A DNA stretch of 40,579 bases from contig CAZPVR010000001.1 of NCBI GenBank assembly GCA_964590365.1, positions 1 to 40,579 of the forward strand, written 5' to 3'. The notes under the pieces were generated by a model. The model was given only the letters and a program-made list of their open reading frames with translations. It was not told the DNA's origin and made no database searches. Below, in pieces: positions 119 to 13,796 of the stretch. A program made the translations under genes and the position numbers. Every line of letters begins with the position of its first letter. Positions within the stretch are counted from its first letter, which is position 1. The stretch comes from an uncultured archaeon. Its GTDB lineage: Archaea > Aenigmatarchaeota > Aenigmatarchaeia > CG10238-14 > SCSR01.

Positions 119-778
119 TTGTATTTTGTGAAATTGAATAGAATTATTTACGTTCAAAGGAAAAGTGAAGATAAATTTTTTGCGCCTATTCAAGTAATAG
201 ACTCTGAAAAATTTTTAGATAAAAAGGTATATAGGGTTGTAAGCAAGGAGAAAGTTTTCGAGTATGGAATATACAAAATGAACCCAAATGCTTGGTACGT
301 TTTGGGTAAAGATAAAGAAGCTCGCAAAATTTTTGGAATGTATTTAAACCGGCATCATCCATCCTTAAAAGACCTTTTCATAAGGGCTACTACAGAAGAT
401 CCACCACTATTCTTCTACCAAGAACATGAAATAAAAAGAATTCTTCTCGAGAAGTTCCATAATAACTTGGACTATGGAATCTTCGATGTAAAAGAGGGGA
501 AAATAGTAGTAAGGAGCATGCCCAACAAAGAAATTATTCATAAGCTGAAAAATATAATTGGGGAAATGAACGAGACTCCTGAACTGAGAATTTTTAGTAG
601 TAAAATTAAATCTATGATGGAAGAGACACAAAAACTTAAGAGAAAATTAAATATCCTTTCAGACCAGAAGAACAACCTCCTTTCTACTTCGCTTACAGAC
701 CCCGAACACTTACAAAAAATTGAGGAGCTAAAGATGATCGAAAAGAAGTTACTTTATTCCCCCTTATGGGTTGAGTGA
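119..778 (+). CDS. hypothetical protein (219 aa; TTG start as given by the ORF track, true start uncertain)
   Basis: Long ORF with non-repetitive composition and a Lys/Glu-rich helical C-terminus. No motif recognised. Confidence 0.5.
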   Translation: MYFVKLNRIIYVQRKSEDKFFAPIQVIDSEKFLDKKVYRVVSKEKVFEYGIYKMNPNAWYVLGKDKEARKIFGMYLNRHHPSLKDLFIRATTEDPPLFFYQEHEIKRILLEKFHNNLDYGIFDVKEGKIVVRSMPNKEIIHKLKNIIGEMNETPELRIFSSKIKSMMEETQKLKRKLNILSDQKNNLLSTSLTDPEHLQKIEELKMIEKKLLYSPLWVE

Positions 779-1012
779 ATTTTAATTTTTTGCAGTAGTG
801 TATTTCGCCTTTTTTCCCATTCTAAAACTTTCCCATAATATTTAGCGTTAACATCAACTCAAGCTTTCCTCTCTACATTCAAAGACAATTTACTTACTCT
901 TTTCATAATGTAAATCGGAATGCGAAGAAAAACAGAAGTGGCATCAAAGAAAAATATTTAACTGTCCCAAAAATCTTTTAAGTAAAAATACTTGAAAATC
1001 CAAATTATTTTT

Positions 1013-1085
1013 GGCCCCGTGAGGTAATAGGATAGCCTGGCTGGCTTCGGACCAGCTCGTCTGGGTTCGAATCCCAGCGGGGCCA
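1013..1085 (+). tRNA. tRNA-Arg (anticodon TCG)
   Basis: Hand-folded cloverleaf: acceptor GGCCCCG/CGGGGCC, D stem AGGT/GCCT, anticodon stem GCTGG/CCAGC with loop CT-TCG-GA, T arm CTGGG-TTCGAAT-CCCAG, discriminator A. No CCA is encoded. Confidence 0.85.
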
Positions 1086-1118
1086 TAAATTTAAAGTTTA
1101 GGTAACATAATTTTTTCT

Positions 1119-2076: not shown

Positions 2077-2235
2077 TTAATGTCGAATGTATAATTCCTC
2101 AGCAATTCCGCATATCCTCGAATATTTTTCCATATCCTCTTTATTTCTAAGAACTCTTTTAACTACTGAACAATAAAGTTCTGTTGGGTTCTCAGGATAT
2201 GGAATGCATGCATTACACTTTTCGCATTCTGGCAT
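2077..2235 (-). CDS. small Cys-rich ORF (52 aa, below the ORF-track cutoff), last ORF of the Ubl cassette
   Basis: My translation is MPECEKCNACIPYPENPTELYCSVVKRVLRNKEDMEKYSRICGIAEELYIRH*. It has an ATG start, begins 15 nt after the stop of the 278-aa ORF, and has a CxxCxxC...C...C pattern. No Shine-Dalgarno sequence seen. Confidence 0.25.
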   Translation of the reverse strand: MPECEKCNACIPYPENPTELYCSVVKRVLRNKEDMEKYSRICGIAEELYIRH

Positions 2236-2250
2236 AAAATTATTTTGTAA

Positions 2251-3087
2251 CTAAAACTTATTTCTTTTTCTCATTTTCCTTAAATAACCTTCTATTTCAT
2301 TCGAAAAAAGGAAAAAGTTTAAAAGGAGTGGCCAGTCGTAAACAAATTCTTCAACAATTTCCCTCGAATTTAAAATTTGTGTAAAAAATTTTAAGTTGTG
2401 ATTTGTGGGATAATAGCTATAAATTTCGATGCTGGCAGTGGGAGGAGAAAAATTAGTTTTAGCAGTAGAATATAAAAGCTTTGCTGAGAAGAAGAGAGAA
2501 TAGTAAGAAAAAAACAATTCGGGCATGATTTTATAAGGTCCTACCAAATCTCTTTTTACTCCAAGCATTAAGTTTATTTCCGAATAATTCTTCCCTTCAG
2601 AACATTCTTTCGAAATTTTATTTACCAATTCTTCCATATCCTTTTCGTTCCAATTTAAAAATTTTTTGAAGTTGTAATCCAATTCATCGCTAGAAAAGGA
2701 TAATCTTAAAGATGAGAGCAAATCTCTTTTGAAAGATTCTTTAATTTGGCTCACATGGAATTTTATTGAACTATCTTTTAATTTTCCTACTAAAAAACCA
2801 AACCATTGACTTGAAGGTTTTATCTCCTCTTTAGGCTTTTTTTCCAAAATTTCTTCCAACGCACTTTCAAAAGATTTATCTTCTTTTAAGGAAGGTTTGA
2901 AGAGCGAAGAAATTTTAATTATATCATTCCCCAAATTTTCTGCATCCCTCTCTCTTTTTCTAACCTCAACGTAGAATTTTCTGCAGAATCCCTTTAAAAC
3001 CTCTCTCTTATCTTCCACAATTAAATTTTGTAAATTAATCTTTTCTAATTTTTTGGAAGAAAATCTTGTTTTTTGAATTCGATTCAT
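2251..3087 (-). CDS. hypothetical protein (278 aa), fifth gene of the Ubl/E2/JAB/E1 cassette
   Basis: ATG start overlapping the E1-like gene by 53 nt. Charged N-terminal half and an aromatic/hydrophobic C-terminal third (FFSYYSLFFSAKLLY...WPLLLNFFLF). No recognisable motif. Confidence 0.6.
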   Translation of the reverse strand: MNRIQKTRFSSKKLEKINLQNLIVEDKREVLKGFCRKFYVEVRKRERDAENLGNDIIKISSLFKPSLKEDKSFESALEEILEKKPKEEIKPSSQWFGFLVGKLKDSSIKFHVSQIKESFKRDLLSSLRLSFSSDELDYNFKKFLNWNEKDMEELVNKISKECSEGKNYSEINLMLGVKRDLVGPYKIMPELFFSYYSLFFSAKLLYSTAKTNFSPPTASIEIYSYYPTNHNLKFFTQILNSREIVEEFVYDWPLLLNFFLFSNEIEGYLRKMRKRNKF

Positions 3088-4375
3088 ACCTTATTATCCC
3101 ATCAAAAGGCTCGCCATATCTTTCATCCAGAATTTTTAAAGTTTCGCTTGCTGAAAGAGCAGATGCTATTATATTAGTTGTTACTATGCTCGGATTCCTT
3201 TCCCATGCGCAGGATGCTCTCTTTACTTTAATAAGCCTACTTATTCCTAAAACTTCGTCCAAATCAGAAGTTTTTCCTGGATAAGTTGTTACAACGCGTG
3301 CAGAATCAAACGTTACACCACTGCTCACATAAGGAATTTTAAATTCAAGCGATTTTTTCAGAATTTCATACCTACTTTCAAAGCTGTCAACCCCTTCAAC
3401 TATGACGTTAGCTTTTTTAATAACAGAATCGTCCAATTCCTCAAATCTTTTCGCATAAGCTTCTATTTTCAACTTCGGATTAATTTTCTCCAGCCTTTCC
3501 TTCCCAACTTCAACTTTTCTTCTTCCAACGCTGCAATAGAAAAGCCATTGTCTGTTTAAATTAGTTGGTTCTATAAAATCAGGGTCCACTATGCTCATTT
3601 CCTTAACTCCTAAACATGCATAAACAGGGCCTTCCCAGCATCCTCCTGTTCCGAATCCTGCCATTAGAATGTTGGAATTCCCCATCCTTGGTTCTTCTGG
3701 AGGATTTTCAAACAGCTGGAATTCAAATTCTTTTTTATCATAAGCCAAATCGTCCTTTAAAGGATTGAAGAATTTTCTTACTTCATCTGCAATTATTCCG
3801 GCAGCAAGCTCAGCAGTTACTATATTTTGTTTTTTATTCTCAAAGTAGCTGAAATCAGGATTGCTATTTGAATGAAAATTGAAAAATATTTTTATTTTAC
3901 TTTTATCACAGCTCGCGCTTATCAAAGGCTTTCTGTTTTTGTTCGAGAATTCTACAATTTTCTCCTTAATTTTCAAATCGTTTGTTGCTTCTACTATTAA
4001 ATCTTCTCCGCCCAAAAAAGTTTCCATTCCTTCATAAAGCCAGTTCACTCCTTTTATGCTTAAATTAGGGTTCATTCTTTTTCCTATTTTTTCCAAGGCT
4101 AAAACTTTTTCCTCTCCTATCCTTGCTTCAAGATAGAAAGGATATTTTACTTTTTCTTCGCCTCTAACCTTCCCATTTCCAAAAATCATTATCCAACCGT
4201 TCTCTCTTTCATGCCCAATTCCCAATCCAGCAAAAGCAGCGAGCAAGAATTGAGAAATATAATCGCACCCTATTAAAGAAATTCTTGCTTTCTTAAGATT
4301 TCTTTGTTTCCAGCCTTTTATTCTTTCCTGCCTATCATAGATGTTTGCCCCATATAGGCATTCTTTCCAGCTCAT
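3035..4375 (-). CDS. E1-like (ThiF/MoeB/UBA-family) activating enzyme with a degenerate N-terminal and an active C-terminal adenylation domain
   Basis: The N-terminal YDRQERIKGWKQRNLKKARISLIGCDYIS..LGIG is an E1-type start with a degenerate G-loop. The second domain has ILMAGFGTGGC (GxGxxG), VDPDFIEPTNLNRQ (DxDxxExxNLNRQ), VGRRKVEV, VEGVDSFESR and a candidate catalytic Cys in KRASCAWERNPSIVTTN. Confidence 0.8.
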   Translation of the reverse strand: MSWKECLYGANIYDRQERIKGWKQRNLKKARISLIGCDYISQFLLAAFAGLGIGHERENGWIMIFGNGKVRGEEKVKYPFYLEARIGEEKVLALEKIGKRMNPNLSIKGVNWLYEGMETFLGGEDLIVEATNDLKIKEKIVEFSNKNRKPLISASCDKSKIKIFFNFHSNSNPDFSYFENKKQNIVTAELAAGIIADEVRKFFNPLKDDLAYDKKEFEFQLFENPPEEPRMGNSNILMAGFGTGGCWEGPVYACLGVKEMSIVDPDFIEPTNLNRQWLFYCSVGRRKVEVGKERLEKINPKLKIEAYAKRFEELDDSVIKKANVIVEGVDSFESRYEILKKSLEFKIPYVSSGVTFDSARVVTTYPGKTSDLDEVLGISRLIKVKRASCAWERNPSIVTTNIIASALSASETLKILDERYGEPFDGIIRYESNSKNKIFFQKIRKD

Positions 4376-5207
4376 TCAACCTCCTTTGAATTCTTGAAGT
4401 GGAGTAAACAATCCTTTCTTCCATATTCCTTCTTAAATCTTCTTCATCAATTTCTTTGCAATCTTCCAAAATTTCCATCCTTACTCTTTTTGCGCTTATG
4501 GGATAAGGCCCGCATCCTGGGCAAACGGGCTGGTATATTACTTCGGAATACCATTCCTTTGCCCTATTCATAATCATATAATAAGCATAATTTATGACCA
4601 AATTCAGCTTTAAATCCATAAAAGCATCCTTAAGCTCATCTTCTAAAAACTCGAACCCAACCATTTTCAATATCCTTTTAATCCTATCAAACCTAGTTCT
4701 TCTTTCAGCAAACCTTAATTCAACTTTTTCTAAGTAGTTTGATGGGATTTTAAGGCTTAATTTTTCCCCATCCTTACTTACTCCCTCAACCTTTCCGCTA
4801 ATAAGGGTTATATAGCAAGATTTCTTCAAAGGGCTGGCGCTTAATATTCTTGCTCTCTCCTTAATTTCCTCGTCTTTTGAAGAAGAAAATGCAGGAAATA
4901 TTCCATGATAATGAAATTCGCCTACAGCATCAAAGCCAAAAAGCTCTAGCTCTTTAGCTTTTACGATCTCTGAAATTGGCCTTAAATCAACTGAAGAATA
5001 TGTTGTTGATTGAAAGGGAAGATAAACATCCGTTATTATATCCTCTTTTTCAGCTTTTGGTTTAATTAAGCAACATCCAAACTCCCTCCCTCCAAAAAAA
5101 TTCTCAGAAATTTCAGCATACTTCACAATTTTTTGTAAAGCACTCTTCCTCATTCTCACAACTTTAAACTCCTTATTAATTATTCTCTCCAATTCCTTCT
5201 CAAACAC
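4335..5207 (-). CDS. JAB/MPN (JAMM) metalloprotease with an extra C-terminal domain of about 150 aa
   Basis: Exact JAMM signature H99-Y-H101-GIFPAFS-S109-SK-D112 (HxHx7Sx2D; nt 4872..4913) with an upstream Glu in GGREFGCC. Overlaps the E2-like gene by 8 nt and the E1-like gene by 41 nt. Confidence 0.8.
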   Translation of the reverse strand: MFEKELERIINKEFKVVRMRKSALQKIVKYAEISENFFGGREFGCCLIKPKAEKEDIITDVYLPFQSTTYSSVDLRPISEIVKAKELELFGFDAVGEFHYHGIFPAFSSSKDEEIKERARILSASPLKKSCYITLISGKVEGVSKDGEKLSLKIPSNYLEKVELRFAERRTRFDRIKRILKMVGFEFLEDELKDAFMDLKLNLVINYAYYMIMNRAKEWYSEVIYQPVCPGCGPYPISAKRVRMEILEDCKEIDEEDLRRNMEERIVYSTSRIQRRLNELERMPIWGKHL

Positions 5208-6384
5208 TTAGCACAACCTTCCTCTTAACGTTAGTTATAGGAATCCTTTCTTTGCTTATTTCCTCAAAACTAAATTTTTTAAATTCTTCATGCGTAATAT
5301 AAGTTCCATGGCTTATAGTAGAAGTTACAAGACCTCTTACCCCATTAATCAGCCAAAGCGCAATGTGCAATCCTCTTACCTTTAAATCAGAATCGTTAGC
5401 AGGAATTTGGCCTGTTTTAATTAAATAATCAACGCCGAAATCCCCAAAACATATTTCTAAATTACCACTCTCCTCCCAAACATGAGGATGCTTATAGGGC
5501 TTCGACATCCTCGGCATGGTATAAGTTAAATCGCTTCTTACCCTTATCTCTATCCTCCCTTTTCCAAAAACATGATAAACTGGTTTTTTATCCTCTTCTG
5601 AGCAAAGCCCGCAGTACAAGGCATATTTTTCAGGAGTTTCTGCATATATTTTGTAAGATTTGGACGATTCTCTTATTATACCCCTTCTCAACTTTTCATG
5701 CATAGCATTAAACTCCTCTATAGCCTTACCCAAGGCCTCGAATTCTGATTTTGGAGATTTTCTAACTTCCTCCAAAACTTGAGAAAAGAAAAACCTTCTT
5801 ATAGCCTTATCATATTCCTTACTCATTTCCTCAAAAGAATTTTCAAATTCTAAGAAGCAATATTTAACACCGTCTATGCTTACATGAATCTGGTCTTCCC
5901 CTATACTACTTTCTTCAAGCTTATAAATTCTTGGCCCTCCTATGTTCAGAAGGGCAAAAACATCCAAATCATAATCTCTATAATCGAGCATCCTTTTCCA
6001 TATGCTTTTTTCTCCCTCTTTCTCTTTTTCTACCTTTCTCCTTTCTTCCCTGAAAGTTGGATATACACCAAAATTAGGTATTACATTATAAACTATGAAC
6101 CTTCTTAATTCCAACTCCTCTTCATCAAATCTACTTAAATTTCCTTTTCCCAAAATTTCCTTAATCTTTTCTTCCTTCCATGCTTTAATATGAGAGGAAT
6201 ACTTTGTTTCATACAGTTTTTCTAAATTGGAAATTGTATCTTGCTTCCTCAAATAATGTGTTTTCTTAAGCCGGATATAGCTTGAAGAAGGTTCTTTAGT
6301 TATTCCAAAAATATCCTCATAACTAACAACTAAGTTTACTCCCCTTCTGGCAAGTTCAAAGAGAAAGTTGGACGGTAATTCCAT
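5200..6384 (-). CDS. E2 (UBC-fold)-like conjugating-enzyme domain fused to an uncharacterised N-terminal region of about 240 aa
   Basis: The C-terminal region reads ...YTMPRMSKPYK-HPH-VWEESGNLEIC-FGDF. This matches the E2 HPN flap followed about 10 residues later by the catalytic Cys (H299-P-H301, C312; nt 5449..5490). It is preceded by beta-meander-like segments (YKIYAET, YALYCGL, VYHVFGKGRIEIRVR). Confidence 0.65.
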   Translation of the reverse strand: MELPSNFLFELARRGVNLVVSYEDIFGITKEPSSSYIRLKKTHYLRKQDTISNLEKLYETKYSSHIKAWKEEKIKEILGKGNLSRFDEEELELRRFIVYNVIPNFGVYPTFREERRKVEKEKEGEKSIWKRMLDYRDYDLDVFALLNIGGPRIYKLEESSIGEDQIHVSIDGVKYCFLEFENSFEEMSKEYDKAIRRFFFSQVLEEVRKSPKSEFEALGKAIEEFNAMHEKLRRGIIRESSKSYKIYAETPEKYALYCGLCSEEDKKPVYHVFGKGRIEIRVRSDLTYTMPRMSKPYKHPHVWEESGNLEICFGDFGVDYLIKTGQIPANDSDLKVRGLHIALWLINGVRGLVTSTISHGTYITHEEFKKFSFEEISKERIPITNVKRKVVLSV

Positions 6385-6387
6385 CCT

Positions 6388-6780
6388 TCACCTCATCTCT
6401 CCTGCAGGCGCTATTAAAACATCTGCATAATAACAAATTCTTTCCTTCCCTTCAATCTCTTTCTTAGCTTTACCTCTTACATAATCGAAAATGTTTTTTC
6501 TTGGATCTATATTATACTTTTCGTTCACAATTATCTGATAATCTCCCGACTCAAGAAGGCTTTCAATTAAATTTGCCACACTCTTTTCCTTAATATCTTT
6601 AACATCCTCTAAGCAAAAATTTATAACATCCTCAACACTCATTCCTTTTGCTTTTTCTGAGTCAATCAGTTTTTTAATCGAATCTTCCCTTCCAAATCTT
6701 TTTAATTCCACGTAAAGAGGTATTCTCTCCTCGAACAATTCTCTCTCTTCTCTTCTTATAGCCCTTGGTAAATATTCCAC
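6388..6780 (-). CDS. small protein (130 aa), first gene of the cassette; candidate ubiquitin-like modifier (function speculative)
   Basis: GTG start; its stop lies 3 nt before the E2-like gene. It occupies the position held by the Ubl in Ubl-E2-JAB-E1 operons. The C-terminus ...CYYADVLIAPAG-EMR has a Gly three residues from the end. No GG terminus. Confidence 0.35.
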   Translation of the reverse strand: MEYLPRAIRREERELFEERIPLYVELKRFGREDSIKKLIDSEKAKGMSVEDVINFCLEDVKDIKEKSVANLIESLLESGDYQIIVNEKYNIDPRKNIFDYVRGKAKKEIEGKERICYYADVLIAPAGEMR

Positions 6781-6816: not shown

Positions 6817-7911
6817 TCATATTTTCCAGTCCTTTAGCTTGTAATCGGAAAGAATAAAAACTTTTACAAAGGATGTTAAGTAGATTAATGTATTTAATGG
6901 AACGTAGAAGAAAAGGTAAACAAAAAATTCTTTAATATAGAATTCGTACTTAAGCTTCTTAGCTGCCGTGAAGAAAATGATTGAAAGAATAAAGAAAAGT
7001 ACAAAAATTAGAATTGTTTCCCAAATCAAGAGAGTTGGTAAATAAGAAAGGGTGAAATTTGCGCTCAAAAGGTTGGAAATAGAAGATTGGATGAATGTTT
7101 TTTTAACCATGTAGCCAAAAATTATGGAGGAGGAAAGAAGGAAGAAGAAAGCAGGGAGGATAAAAGGGAGAAAAGGGAAAAGCAGCTTAGGGGATTTTAG
7201 AAATGAGTGAACGATCTCTTTAAAATGCTTTTTTAACCAAAGTGCTACTCCAATCCCCCATCTCTCTCTTTGTCTAAACCAATGCTCCCAAGAAGTAGGA
7301 GCTTTATTCCATACCTCTATCTCTTTATCATACTTTAACTTTTTGTTCTCAATAAAAGCTCTTAAGCCAATTTCTAAATCCTCTGCTACAACCCTTCGAA
7401 ACATTCCTAGTTCATAAAAAACTTCTCGCTTTATACCGAAAGCTGGTCCATATACACCAAAACACTTTTTAAATTTCTCTGAGAAAAGCCATTCTACAAA
7501 ATTAAAGCTTATATAATCGTAATTAACTAGTTTAGAGATAAGGGATTCCCTGATTACTCTTTTCTTAATTTCAAGAATATCACAATCCTTTATGCTACTT
7601 GCTACTTTCTTTAAAAAACTTTTATATTTCCTTGGTATCTTTACATCAGAATCCAAAAAAAGTAGAATTTTTCCGCTCGATTTTTCCACTGCCTCATTAA
7701 GCGCTCTGGCCTTCCCCTTTCTTTTTTTATTGAGTATAAACTTTATTTTTCCCTTATATTTCTCAACCAAACCTAAGCTTTTCCTCGTTGGCTCATCTAT
7801 GATAACAAAGATTTCCTTATTCTTATAAGGATCTTCCAACAAGCTTTCGATTATATCATCAAGAAAATCGGATTCTCTGTAGACGGGTACGAAAACGCTA
7901 ATTTTTTCCAT
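6817..7911 (-). CDS. family 2 glycosyltransferase, processive type, with C-terminal transmembrane segments
   Basis: VFVPVYRE, IIDEPT, LFLDSDV (DxD), VVAEDLEIG and QRERW (QxxRW) motifs, followed by several hydrophobic helices. Confidence 0.85.
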   Translation of the reverse strand: MEKISVFVPVYRESDFLDDIIESLLEDPYKNKEIFVIIDEPTRKSLGLVEKYKGKIKFILNKKRKGKARALNEAVEKSSGKILLFLDSDVKIPRKYKSFLKKVASSIKDCDILEIKKRVIRESLISKLVNYDYISFNFVEWLFSEKFKKCFGVYGPAFGIKREVFYELGMFRRVVAEDLEIGLRAFIENKKLKYDKEIEVWNKAPTSWEHWFRQRERWGIGVALWLKKHFKEIVHSFLKSPKLLFPFLPFILPAFFFLLSSSIIFGYMVKKTFIQSSISNLLSANFTLSYLPTLLIWETILIFVLFFILSIIFFTAAKKLKYEFYIKEFFVYLFFYVPLNTLIYLTSFVKVFILSDYKLKDWKI

Positions 7912-7974: not shown

Positions 7975-8049
7975 TGGGGACGCTGGGATTTGAACCCAGG
8001 TCTGAGCCTCCCAAGGGCCCGATCCTAGACCAAGCTAGACGACGTCCCC
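7975..8049 (-). tRNA. tRNA-Pro (anticodon TGG)
   Basis: The reverse complement folds as acceptor GGGGACG/CGTCCCC, D arm GTCT..GGAT, anticodon stem GGGCC/GGCTC with loop CT-TGG-GA, T arm CTGGG-TTCAAAT-CCCAG, discriminator A. Confidence 0.85.
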
Positions 8050-8106: not shown

Positions 8107-8192
8107 TGGGGCAGCTGGGATTTGAACCCAGGATTTCCACCGTTCCATGCTTCCCCAGGGTGGCGTCCTATTCCAAGCTAGACGACTGCCCC
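8107..8192 (-). tRNA. tRNA-Pro (anticodon GGG) with a short insertion of about 10 nt next to the anticodon (37/38 region)
   Basis: The reverse complement folds as acceptor GGGGCAG/CTGCCCC, D arm GTCT..GGAC, anticodon stem CCACC/GGTGG enclosing 17 nt (CTGGGG-AAGCATGGAA-C), T arm CTGGG-TTCAAAT-CCCAG. Only a relaxed BHB could be drawn by eye. Confidence 0.65.
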
Positions 8193-8222: not shown

Positions 8223-9485
8223 ATGGTAATTGTTGGGAGGAGTAAAGAGGATTTAGAAGTTTTTGGGGAGGAATGTGCCGGCTACATAGGGAAGCATATC
8301 GTTGGAACAGGAGAAGAAGCACACCTAACAACAAAAGTTTTCCTCGATTTTCTCAAAACTCATGTAATTCTAATAACGGGAAAAAGGGGGTGTGGAAAAA
8401 GCTATGATGCAGGGGTTATAGCAGAGGAAATTGCTTTGCTTCCAGAAAAATACAGAAAAAATTTGGCAGTCGTTATAATAGATACTATGGGAATATTCTG
8501 GAGTTTAAAGAGACCAAACGAGCAGCAGAAAAATTTTTTAAAAGAATGGGGCTTAGAACCTAGGGGTCTTGATAATGTTAAAGTTTTTGTTCCATTTTCG
8601 CAGCTTGAAGAATTTAAAAATTCTGGCATTCCTGTTGATGAAGGTTTTTCAATTCTGCCCTATGAATTTTCAGCCGAAGAATGGAGGCTTGCCTTCAACC
8701 TAAAAAGGACAGAACCTGCAGGAATTTCTCTCGAGAAAGTGTTGAATCAACTTCTTGAATCAGGTCAGAAATTTTCCATAGATGATATAATAACTAAAAT
8801 CAGGGATGATGAAGAGATTTCGAAGGAAGTGAAAAGTGCTTTGGAGAATATGCTGAGTGTTGCAAAGCAGTGGGGAGTTTTTGGGGAAAAAGGAATTAAT
8901 ATAGATGATTTGGTCAAACCCGGGCAAATTTCTGTAATAGATGTTTCCCGCTTAAGGGCAATGGAAGCTTGGAGCGTAAGGAATTTTATAGTAGCTATAA
9001 TAGCGAGAAAGGTTTATGAATATAGAGTAATAGCGAGAAAGGAAGAAGAAATAGCGAGAATTGAAGGAAGGGAAATGGAAAAAAAGTATCCAATGGTATG
9101 GTTAATAGTTGATGAAGCTCATAATTTTTGCCCATCGGATTTTGAAACAATTTCTTCTCAGCCTTTCTTAACCATAGCAAAACAAGGAAGGGAGCCTGGA
9201 GTAAGCTTAGTTGTTATAACTCAAATGCCGAACAAAATTCATCAGGATATTTTAAGCCAATGCGATTTGATAATTTCACACCGTTTAACTTCCAAGGACG
9301 ATTTACAAGCTTTGCATGCAGTTTATCAAACTTATATGCAGGAGGAAATAGAGAAGATGATAAATAAGCTTCCTAGATGGCCTGGAGCTGCTTTAATTCT
9401 TGATGATAACTTAGAAAAGGCATTTACAGTAGCTATAAGGCCGAGGCTAAGCCATCATGCAGGTGGGACCGCAATTCTGATTTAA
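8223..9485 (+). CDS. HerA/FtsK-superfamily P-loop ATPase (DUF87-like)
   Basis: Walker A ITGKRGCGKSY and Walker B VWLIVDEAHNF. SLVVITQMP and the C-terminal layout are typical of archaeal HerA-like ATPases. Confidence 0.7.
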   Translation: MVIVGRSKEDLEVFGEECAGYIGKHIVGTGEEAHLTTKVFLDFLKTHVILITGKRGCGKSYDAGVIAEEIALLPEKYRKNLAVVIIDTMGIFWSLKRPNEQQKNFLKEWGLEPRGLDNVKVFVPFSQLEEFKNSGIPVDEGFSILPYEFSAEEWRLAFNLKRTEPAGISLEKVLNQLLESGQKFSIDDIITKIRDDEEISKEVKSALENMLSVAKQWGVFGEKGINIDDLVKPGQISVIDVSRLRAMEAWSVRNFIVAIIARKVYEYRVIARKEEEIARIEGREMEKKYPMVWLIVDEAHNFCPSDFETISSQPFLTIAKQGREPGVSLVVITQMPNKIHQDILSQCDLIISHRLTSKDDLQALHAVYQTYMQEEIEKMINKLPRWPGAALILDDNLEKAFTVAIRPRLSHHAGGTAILI

Positions 9486-9507
9486 ATTAAAAACTAAATT
9501 CAAATTA

Positions 9508-9711
9508 ATGGAAATAGAACTTATAAAGCAGTTGTTAATAATTTTTGGTGTGATAGCTCCTGTCATAATTGCTGTTTACATGCTAATCTTCCTCCTCAGA
9601 AAAAGATGTCCTTTATGCGGAGCAAAGATGAAATTTCTGTACAGAGGGAATAGCGTTGTTGGTTATTATTGTCCAAAGTGTAAGCATTATGAAGTAAAAG
9701 TTATAGAGTAA
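9508..9711 (+). CDS. small membrane-anchored zinc-ribbon protein
   Basis: One N-terminal hydrophobic helix (LLIIFGVIAPVIIAVYMLIFLL), then CPLC...x17...CPKC. Starts 22 nt after the HerA-like gene. Confidence 0.5.
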   Translation: MEIELIKQLLIIFGVIAPVIIAVYMLIFLLRKRCPLCGAKMKFLYRGNSVVGYYCPKCKHYEVKVIE

Positions 9712-11272
9712 CTATTCTTGTAACAGTACCTATCCCTTTTGTTTTCCCTTCCCTAAAAATGAATTTATCCCCTTCTTGAACAAAGCATGGAAAATATTTA
9801 AAAGTAAACCTAACTTTTCCGCTTTCCCCTGCCTTTAAATATTTTTTATCCAAACATTCTAATTTTGCGCTTTGGGATGCTGTTGAAAAGTGGAGAACTG
9901 GCTCATAACCAGAAGCTATGCGAGTAGGATGGGTCAAAACGAGTATTTCTGCCTCAAAGCTTTTTACTGCCTTTGGTTTAAGATCTTCTTCGCAAAGAAT
10001 CATACCCCTCCTTATTTCCTCATGTTTCACTCCTTTAATCGAGATACCAACTATTAGGCCTGCATTCGCTTCTTCTAAAGAGCAATAATGAGTCTGAATG
10101 CTTGCAACCTTCACTTTTCTAAATTCACCGCTTGAAAAGGGTCCTAGAAGTAAAGTAGAGCCTGATTTTATTTTTCCCTGCTTAATGGAACCAGAAACTA
10201 CTGTACCCACACCTTTAACGTTATAAACTTTATCTACGAACATAAGGAAAGGTTTATCAGTTTCTCTTTTTCTCGCAGGAAGCATGCCCAAAAACTTAAT
10301 TAATTTATCCATGCCTTCAAAAGTTTTGGAAGACACTTCAAATATAGGAACTAAAGTTTCAAGTTTATCCAAGATTATTCCCAAATCTCTTTCTTCTTTT
10401 ATTAAAAAAGGTATTCTTCCAACAAGCTTAATTAATCTTTCCACTTCCTCTCTAACTTCCTTCCTCTTTTTTTCTCCTACTTTATCTATTTTCGTTATAC
10501 AAACTATTATCGGAAGATTTAAGGCAAGAAGTATTCCTAGATGCTCTTTAGTTATGTGAGTAATTCCATCGTCGCAAGCTATTACTAACAAGCCATAATC
10601 TAGGCTTTGTCCTACCAAACCCCTAATAGTTGTTCTTAGCCATGGTTCATGGCCGACAGTATCTACAAAGCTTATTACTTTTGTAGAATCCCTAAAAACC
10701 GTTGCCCTTTCTCTTTTATCCAAAGGATTTTTTAAATGAATTGGCAAAGAGTCTTTAAAGCCGAAAAGAGTAAAATGCAAATCAGCAGACAATCCCCTTT
10801 CTATTTCATGGGGCAAAACATTCAAGTAGAGCCATTTGTTTCCTTCTTTATCCGGCTCCCCAGTTACTATTGTTGCAATTAAAGTAGACTTTCCATGAGA
10901 AACGTGGCCAGCAACCCCTATTATGATACTCTCCTTTTTCTCTAACCTTAAAACTTGTTTGATTATTATCCTTCCTATAATTTTATCATTTTCACTGAAC
11001 TTTTCAACTTTCTCTATTCTCGCATTATTCTCCATCGCTATTATTCTCAAAACGTTCAAGCTTTCTTCAAACTCCATCTCGCTTAAACCCTTGACCTCAC
11101 CATTTTCCTTTACACCTATTATATAAACAGCAACACCATTACCCTTTTCCAACCTAAATTTCATTTGCGTAGCCAATTGTTGCTTTCTCTCTTCCTTAAG
11201 ATGAATCTCAGAGATAAGCCTTTCTTTGAATTCTATATTCCTCTGTTCCTTCCTCGGAAGCTTAACCTTCAT
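9701..11272 (-). CDS. GTPBP1-like translational GTPase (EF-1alpha/EF-Tu superfamily)
   Basis: G1 GHVSHGKST, G3 DTVGHEPW, G4 TKIDK, followed by EF-Tu domain II/III-like beta-barrels (VKGVGTVVSGSIKQGKI...). The N-terminal extension is typical of GTPBP1-family proteins. Confidence 0.8.
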   Translation of the reverse strand: MKVKLPRKEQRNIEFKERLISEIHLKEERKQQLATQMKFRLEKGNGVAVYIIGVKENGEVKGLSEMEFEESLNVLRIIAMENNARIEKVEKFSENDKIIGRIIIKQVLRLEKKESIIIGVAGHVSHGKSTLIATIVTGEPDKEGNKWLYLNVLPHEIERGLSADLHFTLFGFKDSLPIHLKNPLDKRERATVFRDSTKVISFVDTVGHEPWLRTTIRGLVGQSLDYGLLVIACDDGITHITKEHLGILLALNLPIIVCITKIDKVGEKKRKEVREEVERLIKLVGRIPFLIKEERDLGIILDKLETLVPIFEVSSKTFEGMDKLIKFLGMLPARKRETDKPFLMFVDKVYNVKGVGTVVSGSIKQGKIKSGSTLLLGPFSSGEFRKVKVASIQTHYCSLEEANAGLIVGISIKGVKHEEIRRGMILCEEDLKPKAVKSFEAEILVLTHPTRIASGYEPVLHFSTASQSAKLECLDKKYLKAGESGKVRFTFKYFPCFVQEGDKFIFREGKTKGIGTVTRIVTL

Positions 11273-11339
11273 GATTTCACTTAAAAACTTTCTGATTTTA
11301 AAATTTAAAAGTTAACTAAAGAAATATAGTTTATAGAGG

Positions 11340-12305
11340 ATGGAAATGAGCATAGAAGTGTGGGCTGAAAAGTACAGGCCAAAGAGGCTGAGTGAAGTAA
11401 TAAACCAGAAGCATGTAGTGGAAAGAATAAAAGCTTTTGTAGAGGAAAAAAGCCTGCCCCATTGTTTATTTGCCGGTCCTCCTGGAACAGGGAAAACTAC
11501 TGTTGCTCTTTGTATAGCACACGAACTTTATGGTGAGAATTGGAAGGCCAATACTTTAGAGAAAAATGCAAGCGATGAAAGGGGAATAGACGTGATAAGG
11601 GGGGAAATAAAAGAATTTGCCAGGATAAAGCCCATAGGAGATGTTCCTTATAAATTGATAATATTGGATGAAGCAGATGCCTTGACAGCAGATGCTCAGA
11701 ATGCTCTGAGAAGAACGATGGAAAATTATACTTCTGTTTCCAGATTCATACTTCTTTGCAACTATTCGAGCAAAATCATAGAGCCTTTGCAGAGTAGATG
11801 TGCTGTTTTTAGGTTTAAGCCGCTTACAGAGGCTGATGTAAGAAAGTTTATTCAAAGAATAGTAACAGGAGAAAAACTTAAAATAACAGAGGATGGTATT
11901 CAAGCCATAGTTGAAATTTCTGAAGGAGATTTGAGAAAAGCTGCAAACTTATTACAAGCAGCAGCATCGTTAGAGAAGAAGATAACAGAAGAAGTAGTTT
12001 ACGATGTGGCTTCAAGGGCAAGGCCTACTGATGTAAAAGAAATGCTTGAATTGACTTTGAAAGGAAAATTTGAGGATGCTAGGAAGAAATTGCAGGAAAT
12101 GCTTTTGAGGCAAGGGTTAAGCGGGAGCGATATAATTTCAGAAATACATAAGCAAATCTATTCTTTAAATTTGCCCGAAGATGTTAAAATAGATTTAATA
12201 GCAAAATGCGGAGAATATGAGTTTAGGATAAGCGAAGGTGGGAATGAATTAATACAATTAGAAGCTCTTTTAGCTCAATTTTTAATTGCATCGCAACGAA
12301 AATGA
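11340..12305 (+). CDS. rfcS: replication factor C small subunit
   Basis: WAEKYRPKRLSEV, Walker A GPPGTGKTT, Walker B ILDEADALT, sensor SRC motif (QSRCAVFRF), 321 aa. Confidence 0.9.
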   Translation: MEMSIEVWAEKYRPKRLSEVINQKHVVERIKAFVEEKSLPHCLFAGPPGTGKTTVALCIAHELYGENWKANTLEKNASDERGIDVIRGEIKEFARIKPIGDVPYKLIILDEADALTADAQNALRRTMENYTSVSRFILLCNYSSKIIEPLQSRCAVFRFKPLTEADVRKFIQRIVTGEKLKITEDGIQAIVEISEGDLRKAANLLQAAASLEKKITEEVVYDVASRARPTDVKEMLELTLKGKFEDARKKLQEMLLRQGLSGSDIISEIHKQIYSLNLPEDVKIDLIAKCGEYEFRISEGGNELIQLEALLAQFLIASQRK

Positions 12306-12484
12306 AAGAAAAAATTAAAAAATATCCTCTCACTATTTATGAAACAAGCCTTTCTATTTTAGGTTATTCTTTAACACGAAACTATGATTTCATTTTAATC
12401 GGCTTGCCTTTAGCTTTTTTAACATTTTGTTTAGAGAAATTTTTCCCTTATGAAAAATTCAAAACAGGTATTAAATTGAGTTAG
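12302..12484 (+). CDS. small hydrophobic ORF (60 aa) coupled to rfcS by an ATGA overlap
   Basis: The ATG overlaps the rfcS stop. One predicted TM segment (FILIGLPLAFLTFCL). No other support. Confidence 0.3.
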   Translation: MKEKIKKYPLTIYETSLSILGYSLTRNYDFILIGLPLAFLTFCLEKFFPYEKFKTGIKLS

Positions 12485-12602
12485 AATTTTTAATTTTCCT
12501 TACAACATTCTAACTATAGCATAAGGCTTGAGCATTCTGATGTAATTCTAAATACAATGGCCATAAAATTCATTTTTTAAGACTTAAAAATATAAGATAG
12601 CT

Positions 12603-13796
12603 ATGTGGGTTGAAAAATATAGGCCAAAAAGCTTGAAAGAATTTGTGAACCAGAAAGAAGCTGTGGAAAAATTTTTAGCCTGGATAAGAAGCTGGAAGCC
12701 TGGAAGTAAAGCAATGCTTTTCTACGGCCCTCCAGGAACAGGAAAAACTGCCTTAGTTCATGCTTTTGCAAATGAAAACGATTTAGAGCTTATAGAGATG
12801 AATGCAAGCGATTTTAGAAGCAGGGTAGAAATAGAGGAAGTGTTTGGAAAAAGCATGACGCAAAAATCGCTTTTCAAAAAATCTAAAATTTTTCTAATAG
12901 ACGAAGTTGATGGAATAGTTGGGAGAGAAGATTTGGGCGGGGTAGATGCGATAATAGGAATAATAAAAAAATCTTTTTATCCTTGCGTTTTAACGGCTAA
13001 CGACCCTTATGAGCCTAAGTTAAAAAGTTTAAAAGAAGTTTGCATACTAGTTGAATTCAAGAAACTACATGTGTTTGATATAGAAAAAAAGCTTTTGGAG
13101 ATTTGTCTAAAAGAGAAAATAAAAGCAGAAAAAGAAGTTTTAAGGGAAATTGCTAAGAGGTCTAAGGGTGATTTGAGAGCTGCGATAAACGATTTGGAAG
13201 CTGTTTCAAGAGGGAGGGAAAAAATTACTCTAAGCGATTTGGAGGCCTTAGGATATAGAGAAACTGAAACAACTATATTTGATGCCCTCAAAATAATCTT
13301 TAAAACTAAATCAGTTTTGGCCTCAAAGGTTTCTATTGCCAACGTGGATAAAGATCCTGAAGAAATTTTTTGGTGGATAGAGAATAATTTACCTAAGGAA
13401 TATGAAAAACCTGAAGAACTTGCAAAGGCTTTCGATGTTTTAAGCAAAGCTGATTTGTTCAGAAGTTTTGTGACGCAAAGGCAAAATTGGAAGTTGAGAG
13501 GTTATATGATAGATTTAATGACAGGAGGAATTGCTCTTTCAAAAAAGGAGGCTTATAAGAAGTTTGTAAAGTATGAATACCCAACCAACTTAACTTTGCT
13601 TAGCTCTACGAAAACTGAAAGGGAGAAAGAGAAAAAACTATTTGAAAAGTTGAGGGAAAGGCTTCATTGTTCTACTCGAAAAATAAGAAAGGAATTTTTG
13701 CCTTACTTGAAAATAATTTTGAAAAGGGAAGAATTTAGAAGAAAAATCGTTGAAAGTCTTGGATTAAGCAAGGAAGAAATTTATTTTCTAAAATAG
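12603..13796 (+). CDS. rfcL: replication factor C large subunit
   Basis: WVEKYRPKSLKEFVNQ, Walker A GPPGTGKTA, Walker B FLIDEVDG, 397 aa with a charged C-terminal tail. Confidence 0.85.
   Translation: MWVEKYRPKSLKEFVNQKEAVEKFLAWIRSWKPGSKAMLFYGPPGTGKTALVHAFANENDLELIEMNASDFRSRVEIEEVFGKSMTQKSLFKKSKIFLIDEVDGIVGREDLGGVDAIIGIIKKSFYPCVLTANDPYEPKLKSLKEVCILVEFKKLHVFDIEKKLLEICLKEKIKAEKEVLREIAKRSKGDLRAAINDLEAVSRGREKITLSDLEALGYRETETTIFDALKIIFKTKSVLASKVSIANVDKDPEEIFWWIENNLPKEYEKPEELAKAFDVLSKADLFRSFVTQRQNWKLRGYMIDLMTGGIALSKKEAYKKFVKYEYPTNLTLLSSTKTEREKEKKLFEKLRERLHCSTRKIRKEFLPYLKIILKREEFRRKIVESLGLSKEEIYFLK

What the first reader, a model, noticed from the sequence alone, without database searches (positions are those of the whole stretch)
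5200..5658. E2-like catalytic core fused to a large domain of unknown function
Residues of about 243..394 of the 394-aa protein look like a UBC fold: beta-meander segments, then YTMPRMSKPYKHPHVWEESGNLEIC, with His299-Pro-His301 and Cys312 (TGT at 5451..5449). The preceding 240 or so residues have no motif I recognise. Stand-alone prokaryotic E2s are usually much smaller. The extra domain could be a substrate-recognition or E3-like module, which would make this a single-chain E2/E3.
Basis: partly seen in the sequence, partly recalled or inferred. Interest (0 to 1): 0.65.

Follow-up and report, generated by a model that had tools for sequence, protein, structure and literature searches.

The report
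Divergent E2-like enzyme, archaeal ubiquitin-like operon
The 394-residue protein is most likely the E2 (carrier and conjugating) enzyme of an apparently undescribed ubiquitin-like protein-tagging operon found in small-genome (DPANN-type) archaea, though its E2 fold is supported by sequence motif and gene context rather than by a clear structural match.

Summary
The minus-strand ORF 5200-6384 encodes 394 aa with His299-Pro300-His301 and Cys312 (TGT 5451-5449).

Cys312 is kept in 25 of 26 family members, Pro300 in 23 and His299 in 21. His301 is specific to the Aenigmarchaeota clade and is Phe or Tyr elsewhere.

No Pfam, NCBIfam, PADLOC, PHROGs or PDB sequence match exists. A confident AlphaFold model (pLDDT 84) gives no significant Foldseek hit; the only E2 listed is Ube2W, rank 3, E = 1.4.

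A profile-profile comparison with canonical E2s does align strand 3, strand 4, HPx and Cys in the expected register (P = 0.0014; 0 of 400 shuffles reach it).

Every one of 11 loci examined has the same gene order:
- a small protein with a C-terminal Gly plus a short tail
- this protein
- a JAMM peptidase
- a tandem-ThiF E1
- a gene of about 250 aa

This is the Ubl-E2-DUB-E1 order of bacterial Bil operons.

The N-terminal 230 residues are a tandem duplication of a new strand-plus-helix module, with no E3 features.

Verdict: a divergent E2-like enzyme in an archaeal Bil-like system. The single-chain E2/E3 idea is unproven.

The parts
6388..6780 (-). 130-aa candidate ubiquitin-like modifier precursor. 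The invariant Gly127 (codon 6402-6400) is followed by a 3-residue tail (EMR).
   Evidence: It is always the gene just upstream of the E2-like gene. The C-terminus is I[AS]PAGE[ML]R in the window, L001 and L002 and in L004, and ATGGELRS in L005. More distant operons end in ...EGG or ...YG plus 3-8 residues. The beta-grasp fold is NOT shown: there is no similarity to a ThiS/MoaD/SAMP/Urm1 profile and no PDB hit.
5200..6384 (-). 394-aa E2-like protein, the finding itself.
   Evidence: Intact ORF. There are 4 close and about 20 distant homologues, where named all from archaeal MAGs. AlphaFold model pLDDT 84.4.
6061..6384 (-). N-terminal module 1 (residues 1-108): a short helix, four strands (18-50) and long helices (51-106).
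   Evidence: Secondary structure from the model. Residues 16-60 are homologous to residues 144-193 (hhalign probability 94.9 %, E = 4.4e-8).
5689..6015 (-). N-terminal module 2 (residues 124-232): a repeat of module 1, ending in two long helices (184-228) that lead into the catalytic domain.
5203..5688 (-). C-terminal E2-like catalytic domain (residues 233-394).
   Evidence: Five strands at 234-283, then HPx, Cys, a 3-10 turn and a long helix at 334-354. The hhalign match to canonical E2 strand 3 - strand 4 - HPN - Cys gives P = 0.0014 with 0/400 shuffles reaching it. It is the only operon protein that matches.
5482..5490 (-). His299-Pro300-His301, the counterpart of the E2 HPN motif.
   Evidence: H in 21/26 (Asn in 3), P in 23/26. 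The third position is F 13, H 5, Y 4 and never Asn.
5449..5451 (-). Cys312 (TGT), the predicted thioester-forming catalytic cysteine.
   Evidence: Conserved in 25/26 family members and the only Cys conserved family-wide. It aligns with Cys85 of UBE2D2.
5230..5244 (-). C-terminal I-P-I-T-N motif (residues 381-385). Its role is unknown.
   Evidence: Asn385 is present in all 21 sequences that reach this position; P and T are each in 18/21.
4335..5207 (-). 290-aa JAMM/JAB metallopeptidase, the predicted modifier-processing and deconjugating enzyme.
   Evidence: Glu42, His99-x-His101, Ser109 and Asp112 are conserved in the 2-sequence alignment with L001. PADLOC JAB E = 0.02. BLASTP to the Prok-JAB domain of the L011 protein gives E = 2e-7, and that protein passes the Pfam threshold. 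The gene overlaps the E2-like gene by 8 nt.
3035..4375 (-). 446-aa E1 with a tandem inactive plus active adenylation domain. Cys389 (codon 3211-3209) is the candidate catalytic cysteine.
   Evidence: Pfam ThiF E = 9e-47 in two stretches. PADLOC E1-E2 models match residues 12-145 and 230-327 separately. Invariant residues are G240/G242/G245, D264, D266, NLNRQ 272-276, K287, D330, C389 and an N-terminal Y13-x-R15-Q16.
2251..3087 (-). Fifth operon gene (278 aa as listed; homologues are 241-301 aa). Function unknown.
   Evidence: A gene of 241-301 aa follows the E1 in the window and in 9 of the other 10 loci; in L016 a NUDIX gene stands there instead. Identity is 45-46 % within Aenigmarchaeota but only 12-17 % to distant operons. 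No family hit.
2077..2235 (-). 52-aa Cys4 ORF (CxxC...C...C). Possibly an Aenigmarchaeota-specific accessory component.
   Evidence: Conserved after the fifth gene in L001 and L004 and absent in L005. Not studied further.

Best explanation
The 394-aa protein is the E2-equivalent enzyme of a five-gene archaeal ubiquitin-like conjugation operon. The gene order is modifier, E2-like, JAMM peptidase, pseudo-dimeric E1, then an unknown gene.

Proposed mechanism:
1. The JAMM peptidase removes the three residues after Gly127 of the 130-aa modifier.
2. The E1 adenylates Gly127 in its C-terminal active ThiF domain. The N-terminal degenerate ThiF domain acts as the structural partner and probably supplies Arg15.
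3. The E1 takes the modifier onto Cys389.
4. The modifier passes by transthioesterification to Cys312 of the E2-like protein.
5. The E2-like protein transfers it to target amino groups.

The C-terminal domain (residues 233-394) is a strongly diverged UBC-type core. It keeps the His-Pro of HPN and the Cys, but has an aromatic residue or His instead of the catalytic Asn. The two duplicated N-terminal modules are integral to the family. They most plausibly bind the target, the E1 or the modifier, taking the place of a separate E3.

What is shown: motif conservation, gene order, the E1 and JAMM signatures, the internal duplication and the profile alignment to E2s.

What is inferred: thioester chemistry, the beta-grasp nature of the modifier, the processing site, the role of the N-terminal modules and the biological purpose (defence or proteostasis).
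For: 1. Cys312 is kept in 25/26, Pro300 in 23/26, His299 in 21/26 and Gly314 in 23/26 members that are only 16-31 % identical to the window protein.
2. hhalign against canonical E2s gives P = 0.014 with 5 sequences and P = 0.0014 with 10, with 0/60 and 0/400 shuffles reaching those scores. The alignment is in the exact register strand 3 / strand 4 / HPN / Cys. The best hit of the full-length profile is residues 274-313. Other operon proteins score at background. The comparator sequences were verified as true E2s.
3. The model's element order (helix, strands, HPx, Cys, 3-10 turn, long helix) is that of a UBC core. Ube2W, which itself has HPH...C, is the only E2 listed by Foldseek, at rank 3.
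4. The operon is conserved in 11 loci from Aenigmarchaeota, Woesearchaeota, 'Euryarchaeota SM23-78' and unnamed metagenomes.
5. The E1 has tandem ThiF domains, intact ATP-binding and Arg-finger motifs and an invariant Cys.
6. The JAMM motif is intact.
7. The small protein has a conserved Gly followed by a short tail, as in BilA, which BilC trims (PMC10557695).
8. The order Ubl-E2-DUB-E1 equals that of Bil operons (PMC10557695, PMC11601596).
Against: - A confident model (pLDDT about 90 across the domain) returns no E2 at a significant Foldseek E-value. The best E2 is at E = 1.4, probability 0.16, TM 0.34, although hundreds of E2 chains, including bacterial ones, should be in the PDB.
- No E2 HMM in Pfam or PADLOC matches any of the 26 members or the family consensus.
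- A PDB profile search finds no E2.
- The hhalign probability is only 17.5 %, and the significant stretch is 37 columns.
- The catalytic Asn of HPN is absent.
- The domain has five strands plus an inserted helix rather than the four-strand meander.
- The modifier shows no sequence similarity to known beta-grasp modifiers.
- No biochemical data exist.
Confidence: 0.65

Rival explanations
1. The protein is a functional carrier or ligase with a fold of its own. It accepts the modifier from the E1 on Cys312 and conjugates it, but its catalytic domain is not descended from UBC. The H-P...C resemblance would then be convergent or coincidental. It would be a new class of E2/E3-like enzyme.
For: Foldseek finds no significant E2 match for a confident model. 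No E2 HMM hits. The domain has five strands and an inserted helix. The Asn of HPN is missing, and a family-specific invariant Asn385 sits in a C-terminal PITN motif unknown in E2s.
Against: The profile alignment to E2s is colinear across strand 3, strand 4, HP and Cys and beats all 400 shuffles. With relaxed settings the long helix after Cys aligns with E2 helix 2. The only structural neighbour of known function is an E2.
Confidence: 0.18
2. The system is a sulfur relay rather than a protein conjugation system. The E1 would thiocarboxylate the small protein, as with ThiS, MoaD, TtuB or SAMP, and Cys312 would carry a persulfide.
For: The E1's nearest named families are ThiF and MoeB. Archaeal SAMP systems combine sulfur transfer and conjugation without an E2 (established knowledge; PMC2948915).
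Against: Known sulfur-carrier E1s are homodimers of one ThiF domain, not tandem inactive plus active domains (PMC10557695). There is no rhodanese domain, cysteine desulfurase or biosynthetic gene in any of the 11 loci. The modifier carries a tail that needs JAMM trimming. AAA+ unfoldase genes follow the operon in three lineages.
Confidence: 0.06
3. The protein is a thiol peptidase or deconjugase using a His299/Cys312 dyad, or a non-catalytic scaffold or target of the system.
For: A conserved His and Cys could form a protease dyad. One family member (P0017) lacks the Cys.
Against: The operon already has a JAMM peptidase. A His 11-13 residues upstream of the Cys, on the same loop, is not the layout of known Cys peptidases (established knowledge). 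Without this protein the operon would lack any E2-type component despite having a eukaryote-like E1. Cys conservation of 25/26 argues against a purely structural role.
Confidence: 0.06

Closest known systems
Bacterial Bil (BilABCD) ubiquitin-like conjugation operons, Types I and II (rows 6d and 6c of Iyer et al. 2006; Chambers et al., PMC10557695)
   Same: - Identical gene order: Ubl, E2, JAB, E1.
- The E1 has tandem inactive plus active adenylation domains and an N-terminal Arg.
- In distant members of the window's family the E1 has CxxC...CxC zinc ligands, as in BilD.
- The modifier has a conserved Gly followed by a short tail that needs JAB trimming.
- There is no E3 gene.
- Row 6d also has a fifth, fast-evolving uncharacterised gene (PMC1779556).
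   Different: - The host is archaeal (DPANN-type).
- There is no detectable sequence match of the E2-like protein to PADLOC or Pfam models.
- The E1 lacks the roughly 80-aa CYS domain; only about 20 residues separate PGKTS from Cys389.
- The E2-like protein keeps the classical His-Pro upstream of Cys, whereas Bil E2s lack it and use a His downstream of Cys (PMC1779556, PMC10557695).
- The E2-like protein carries about 230 extra N-terminal residues as two repeated modules.
- Distant operons add an AAA+ ATPase.
Canonical eukaryotic UBC-fold E2s, especially UBE2W (HPH...C)
   Same: Strand 3, strand 4, His-Pro-x, a 7-10 residue loop, [IV]-Cys and then a long helix, with a colinear profile alignment. 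UBE2W shares the literal HPHV...ICL motif and is the top E2 by Foldseek.
   Different: - There is no significant structural or HMM match.
- The catalytic Asn is replaced by Phe, Tyr or His.
- There is an extra strand and helix insertion.
- The C-terminal part differs, with a PITN motif.
- There is a large N-terminal extension.
Eukaryote-like Ub/E1/E2/small-RING/Rpn11 operon of Caldiarchaeum subterraneum and Asgard archaea (PMC3082918, PMC5654768)
   Same: An archaeal operon combining a modifier, an E1, an E2-like enzyme and a JAMM peptidase.
   Different: Those operons also encode a RING E3. By my recollection, not checked here, their ubiquitin and E2 are recognisable by standard sequence models and their E1 has a single ThiF domain. 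Here none of the three E2, modifier or RING features applies, and the E1 is a tandem pseudo-dimer.
Archaeal SAMP/UbaA sampylation
   Same: An archaeal modifier with a C-terminal Gly activated by a ThiF-type E1, and JAMM deconjugation.
   Different: Sampylation has no E2, the E1 is a single-domain homodimer, SAMPs end in a free GG, and the system doubles as a sulfur carrier.
Bacterial Bub (6E/DUF6527) operons (PMC11601596)
   Same: A prokaryotic Ubl/E2/E1 set with a diverged E2.
   Different: Bub enzymes work through oxyester intermediates, their E1 lacks a catalytic cysteine, and they use a DUF6527 serine protease and fused architectures. Here both the E1 and the E2-like protein keep an invariant Cys, and the peptidase is a separate JAMM protein.

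Membership tests
UBC / E2 superfamily | Conserved catalytic Cys on the loop after the beta-meander | tested here: met
   Cys312 is kept in 25/26 members. It follows strands 234-283 and aligns with Cys85 of UBE2D2.
UBC / E2 superfamily | His-Pro of the HPN motif about 10 residues upstream of Cys | tested here: met
   H in 21/26 (Asn in 3) and P in 23/26. The H-to-C distance is 11-13 residues, against 10 in UBE2D2.
UBC / E2 superfamily | Catalytic Asn of HPN | tested here: not met
   Position 301 is F 13, H 5, Y 4, K 2, A 1 and never Asn. UBE2W has His at this position, and Iyer et al. report bacterial E2-like proteins that lack even the conserved His of the motif (PMC1779556).
UBC / E2 superfamily | UBC alpha/beta fold by structure comparison | tested here: inconclusive
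   A confident model gives no hit at E <= 0.001. Ube2W is at rank 3 with E = 1.4, probability 0.16, TM 0.34 over 130 columns. The domain could not be searched on its own.
UBC / E2 superfamily | Match to an E2 sequence model (Pfam UQ_con, Prok-E2_A to E; PADLOC E2 models) | tested here: not met
   None for the window protein, for 26 members or for two consensus sequences. Pairwise hhalign to an E2 profile gives P = 0.0014 but probability only 17.5 %.
UBC / E2 superfamily | Forms a thioester with the modifier, received from the E1 | not testable with these tools
   Needs biochemistry.
Bil (BilABCD) operons | Gene order Ubl-E2-JAB-E1 | tested here: met
   Window 6780 down to 3035 on the minus strand. 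The same order holds in the 10 other loci.
Bil (BilABCD) operons | [quoted passage not shown] | tested here: met
   Two ThiF stretches. The N-terminal domain lacks GxGxxG and NLNRQ, while the C-terminal domain has them.
Bil (BilABCD) operons | Helical CYS domain of about 80 aa inserted in the E1 crossover loop | tested here: not met
   Only about 20 residues lie between the PGKTS motif (366-370) and the invariant Cys389.
Bil (BilABCD) operons | E2 with Cys followed by a conserved His (Cys138/His151 of the CEHH motif) and sequence homology to BilB | tested here: not met
   The conserved His lies upstream of Cys. No PADLOC or Pfam hit. No BilB sequence was available for a direct profile comparison.
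Bil (BilABCD) operons | Modifier with a conserved Gly followed by up to nine non-conserved residues | tested here: met
   Gly127 plus EMR in the window, and G or GG plus 3-8 residues in relatives.
Bil (BilABCD) operons | Modifier has a ubiquitin-like beta-grasp fold | tested here: inconclusive
   No similarity to a ThiS/MoaD/SAMP/Urm1 profile or to the PDB.
JAMM/JAB peptidase (neighbouring gene) | E...HxH-x7-S-xx-D metal-binding motif | tested here: met
   E42, H99, H101, S109 and D112. Homology to a Pfam-passing Prok-JAB protein.
RING / HECT / RBR E3 (for the N-terminal 230 residues) | Cys/His zinc-binding pattern, or a second catalytic Cys | tested here: not met
   The only Cys in residues 1-232 is Cys176, and it is not conserved. 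No family hit.

The most novel reading that the evidence does not exclude
DPANN-type and related archaea carry a previously undescribed, self-contained ubiquitin-like conjugation system. Its E1 already has the eukaryote-style inactive/active pseudo-dimer. Its E2 keeps the classical His-Pro...Cys core but has acquired two repeated N-terminal modules that select targets without an E3. In several lineages the system is coupled to an AAA+ unfoldase, which would suggest tag-dependent unfolding or degradation, or antiviral tagging, in archaea.
Probability: 0.45. Interest if true: 0.8.

Novelty: new variant of a known kind. Interest (0 to 1): 0.66.

Why it matters
Complete E1-E2-modifier-deubiquitinase systems outside eukaryotes are known from a few archaea (Caldiarchaeum, Asgard) and from bacterial defence operons (Bil, Bub, CBASS Cap2).

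This operon would add an archaeal lineage with three unusual features:
- a pseudo-dimeric E1
- an E2 that standard annotation cannot see
- a new repeated module in place of an E3

It gives a defined and testable set of five small genes. With them one can ask how E2s recognise targets without E3s, whether the HPN Asn is dispensable, and what protein tagging does in organisms with minimal genomes.

It also shows that E2-like enzymes can be missed by all current family models.

Tried and rejected
- **Family scans.** Single-sequence and family-wide scans of Pfam, NCBIfam, PADLOC and PHROGs gave no match for the target.
- **PDB sequence searches.** phmmer and a profile search gave only chance hits to kinases and Arl8.
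- **First AlphaFold run.** With 5 close homologues the model was unusable, pLDDT 41.
- **Foldseek.** Searches of the good model against PDB and BFVD gave nothing at E <= 0.001. The best viral hits are uncharacterised phage proteins at E = 0.03-0.15, and I could not retrieve their sequences.
- **Word-indexed homologue searches.** Searches with the broad alignments added almost nothing or nothing.
- **tblastn against phage genomes.** No match for the window protein or for P0012.
- **Fishing for Bil operons on plasmids.** Using the E1 as query matched only its active half. The Bacillus locus I inspected was not a Bil operon.
- **BilB sequences from the paper's supplements.** Not held.
- **Modifier against a ThiS/MoaD/SAMP/Urm1 profile.** Negative; 175/200 shuffles scored higher.
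- **False positives.** P0020 and P0028 from the exhaustive search are Big_3 repeat proteins and were excluded.
- **Papain-like or permuted-peptidase reading.** Rejected because the His-Cys spacing is 13 residues on one loop and a JAMM peptidase is already present.
Full report
**1. Observation**

The window is low-GC (about 34 %) archaeal DNA. It carries the RFC small and large subunits and an EF-Tu-like GTPase, and the closest homologues of the target are annotated as Candidatus Aenigmarchaeota.

The ORF 5200-6384 on the minus strand is intact and 394 aa long. The first 230 residues, and in fact the whole protein, match nothing in Pfam, NCBIfam, PADLOC, PHROGs or PDB sequences.

**2. The family**

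The 5.8-billion-protein index holds only four close homologues, 61-66 % identical. An exhaustive HMMER search with their profile found about 20 more distant relatives of 318-512 aa with the same overall layout. Two Big_3 repeat proteins in that list are false positives. Where sources name the organism, it is Woesearchaeota or 'Euryarchaeota archaeon SM23-78'.

In the 26-sequence alignment:

| Position | Conservation |
|---|---|
| Cys312 | 25/26 |
| Pro300 | 23/26 |
| His299 | 21/26 (Asn in 3) |
| Gly314 | 23/26 |
| Asn385 (in a C-terminal [IL]P[IV]TN motif) | 21/21 of those that reach it |

His301 is specific to the Aenigmarchaeota clade and is Phe or Tyr elsewhere. The other three cysteines of the window protein are not conserved.

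**3. Structure**

With five close sequences AlphaFold failed, at pLDDT 41. With the 26-sequence alignment the model reached pLDDT 84.4, with about 86-96 over most of the C-terminal domain. The model has three parts:

- Residues 1-108: a short helix, four strands and long helices.
- Residues 124-232: the same pattern again.
- Residues 233-394: five strands (234-283, with a short clade-specific helix at 259-265), the HPx loop, Cys312, a 3-10 turn, a short helix, a long helix (334-354) and a short C-terminal helix.

Profile-profile comparison shows that the first two parts are a tandem duplication. Residues 16-60 match 144-193 at hhalign probability 94.9 %, E = 4.4e-8. Neither part resembles the C-terminal domain.

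**4. Is the C-terminal domain an E2?**

The evidence is mixed.

Against:
- Foldseek of the confident model finds no PDB chain at E <= 0.001.
- The only E2 in the top 50 is Ube2W (8a58_A) at rank 3, with E = 1.4, probability 0.16 and TM 0.34 over 130 columns.
- BFVD gives only uncharacterised phage proteins, best E = 0.03.
- No E2 HMM matches any member or the family consensus.
- A PDB profile search finds no E2.

For:
- hhalign of the family's C-terminal profile against canonical E2s gives one local alignment, in exactly the predicted register: RIEIRVR with strand 3, P-x-V/M with strand 4, HP with HP, and Cys312 with Cys85.
- With five E2 sequences the score is 20.6 (P = 0.014), and 0/60 column shuffles reach it.
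- With ten E2 sequences the score is 26.5 (P = 0.0014), and 0/400 shuffles reach it; the maximum is 19.7.
UBE2W and the five sequences of A8 were then checked against the PDB; the other four (UBE2K, UBE2C, UBE2S, UBE2T) were not checked.
- Using the full-length profile, the best E2 match is again residues 274-313. The modifier, JAMM, E1, fifth-gene and N-terminal-module profiles score at background, 10-14.
- With relaxed settings the alignment extends colinearly, so that the long helix after Cys pairs with E2 helix 2.
- Ube2W, the Foldseek hit, has the literal motif HPHV...HICL.

I read this as a real but very distant UBC relationship, not as proof.

**5. Genomic context**

This is the strongest evidence for function. 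In the window the genes are tightly packed on the minus strand, with 3 nt of spacing and then overlaps of 8, 41 and 53 nt:

| Coordinates | Product |
|---|---|
| 6780-6388 | 130-aa protein |
| 6384-5200 | the target |
| 5207-4335 | 290-aa protein |
| 4375-3035 | 446-aa ThiF protein |
| 3087-2251 | 278-aa protein |

The same order is found in all ten other loci I could inspect. They are four Aenigmarchaeota or closely related MAG contigs (L001, L004, L005 and the truncated L002), an intermediate relative (L013) and five distant ones (L007, L010, L011, L014, L015, L016).

*The 446-aa protein* has two ThiF domains.
- The C-terminal domain keeps GxGxxG, D264/D266, NLNRQ, K287, D330 and an invariant Cys389.
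- The N-terminal domain has lost these motifs but keeps an invariant Y13-x-R15-Q16.
- This is the inactive/active pseudo-dimer described for BilD and for eukaryotic E1s, where the inactive domain donates an Arg (PMC10557695).
- It lacks BilD's 80-residue CYS domain.

*The 290-aa protein* has the full JAMM motif: E42, H99-x-H101, S109 and D112. It is homologous to larger operon proteins that pass the Pfam Prok-JAB threshold.

*The 130-aa protein* is homologous across operons. It always ends in a conserved Gly or Gly-Gly followed by 3-8 variable residues. BilA behaves the same way, and BilC trims it (PMC10557695). Its beta-grasp fold could not be confirmed.

*The fifth gene* is of unknown function and evolves fast. 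Iyer et al. (PMC1779556, row 6d) also noted a fast-evolving fifth gene in the bacterial Ubl/JAB/E1/E2 operon type.

In three distant lineages an AAA+ (AAA_2 plus ClpB_D2-small) gene follows the operon.

**6. Mechanism proposed**

1. The JAMM peptidase trims the modifier after Gly127.
2. The active E1 domain adenylates it.
3. A thioester forms on E1 Cys389.
4. The modifier is transferred to Cys312 of the E2-like protein.
5. It is then transferred to targets.

No E3 gene is present. As proposed for Bil E2s (PMC10557695), target choice would lie in the E2 itself, and here the duplicated N-terminal modules are the obvious candidates. Nothing marks those modules as a RING, HECT or RBR E3: they have no metal-ligand pattern and no second conserved Cys. 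'Single-chain E2/E3' therefore remains a hypothesis.

**7. Comparison and novelty**

The system works like a Bil operon but fails several membership tests for that family:
- It has no CYS domain in the E1.
- Its conserved His lies upstream rather than downstream of the Cys.
- It has no sequence match to Bil or other defence-system models.
- Its host is archaeal.

It also differs from the Caldiarchaeum/Asgard operons, which include a RING E3 and, by my recollection (not checked here), a Pfam-detectable E2. It differs from E2-less sampylation too.

Full-text searches for an archaeal or DPANN system of this kind found nothing. That shows only that it is absent from the held library.

I rate it a new variant of a known kind, with interest 0.66. 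The biological role, defence or proteostasis, is open. The Aenigmarchaeota cassette sits among housekeeping genes and tRNA genes, with partly conserved synteny.

Noticed in passing
window 2077-2235 (-); L001 11529-11690; L004 about 7419-7589: A 52-aa Cys4 ORF (CxxC-x14-C-x18-C) lies directly after the fifth operon gene. It is conserved in three Aenigmarchaeota loci. In L004 it has no canonical start codon. In L005 it is absent, and a 16S rRNA 3' end abuts the operon instead. It may be a small zinc-binding accessory factor of the system.
   Followed up: partly
L007 14307-15911; L010 15580-17043; L015 7019-8506: In the Woesearchaeota and 'Euryarchaeota SM23-78' type operons, an AAA+ ATPase (AAA_2 plus ClpB_D2-small) follows the fifth gene, and the JAB proteins grow to 640-950 aa. 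This hints at a link between tagging and unfolding. The window's operon lacks the ATPase.
   Followed up: partly
window 5806-6339 (residues 16-60 and 144-193 of the target): The 'domain of unknown function' is an internal tandem duplication of a module made of two beta-hairpins plus a helix. The module has no match in any library searched.
   Followed up: yes
window 1012-1086 (+), 7975-8049 (-), 8107-8192 (-): tRNA-Arg(tcg) and two tRNA-Pro genes bracket the region that holds the operon, a GT2 glycosyltransferase (6817-7911) and an NTP-transferase (1119-1952). The tRNA-Pro(ggg) is 86 nt long and may contain an intron. The GT2 gene is absent from the syntenic L001 locus. I did not examine whether the region is an insertion.
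   Followed up: no
window 8223-13796: A block of a HerA-like ATPase (DUF87), a 67-aa CxxC...CxxC membrane protein, a 523-aa EF-Tu-family GTPase and the RFC small and large subunits is syntenic with L001 at 74-81 % protein identity.
   Followed up: partly
L014 1-5600: The locus carrying the distant member P0022 has a long run of small same-strand ORFs (45-168 aa) upstream of the operon. This is reminiscent of a viral or mobile element.
   Followed up: no
window 4335-4600 (C-terminal part of the JAMM protein): The JAMM protein has a conserved C-terminal extension with a YQP[VI]CP[GA]CGPYPI motif. The extension is shared with L001 and, at lower identity, with the L013 and L014 homologues over nearly its full length. 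Its function is unknown.
   Followed up: no
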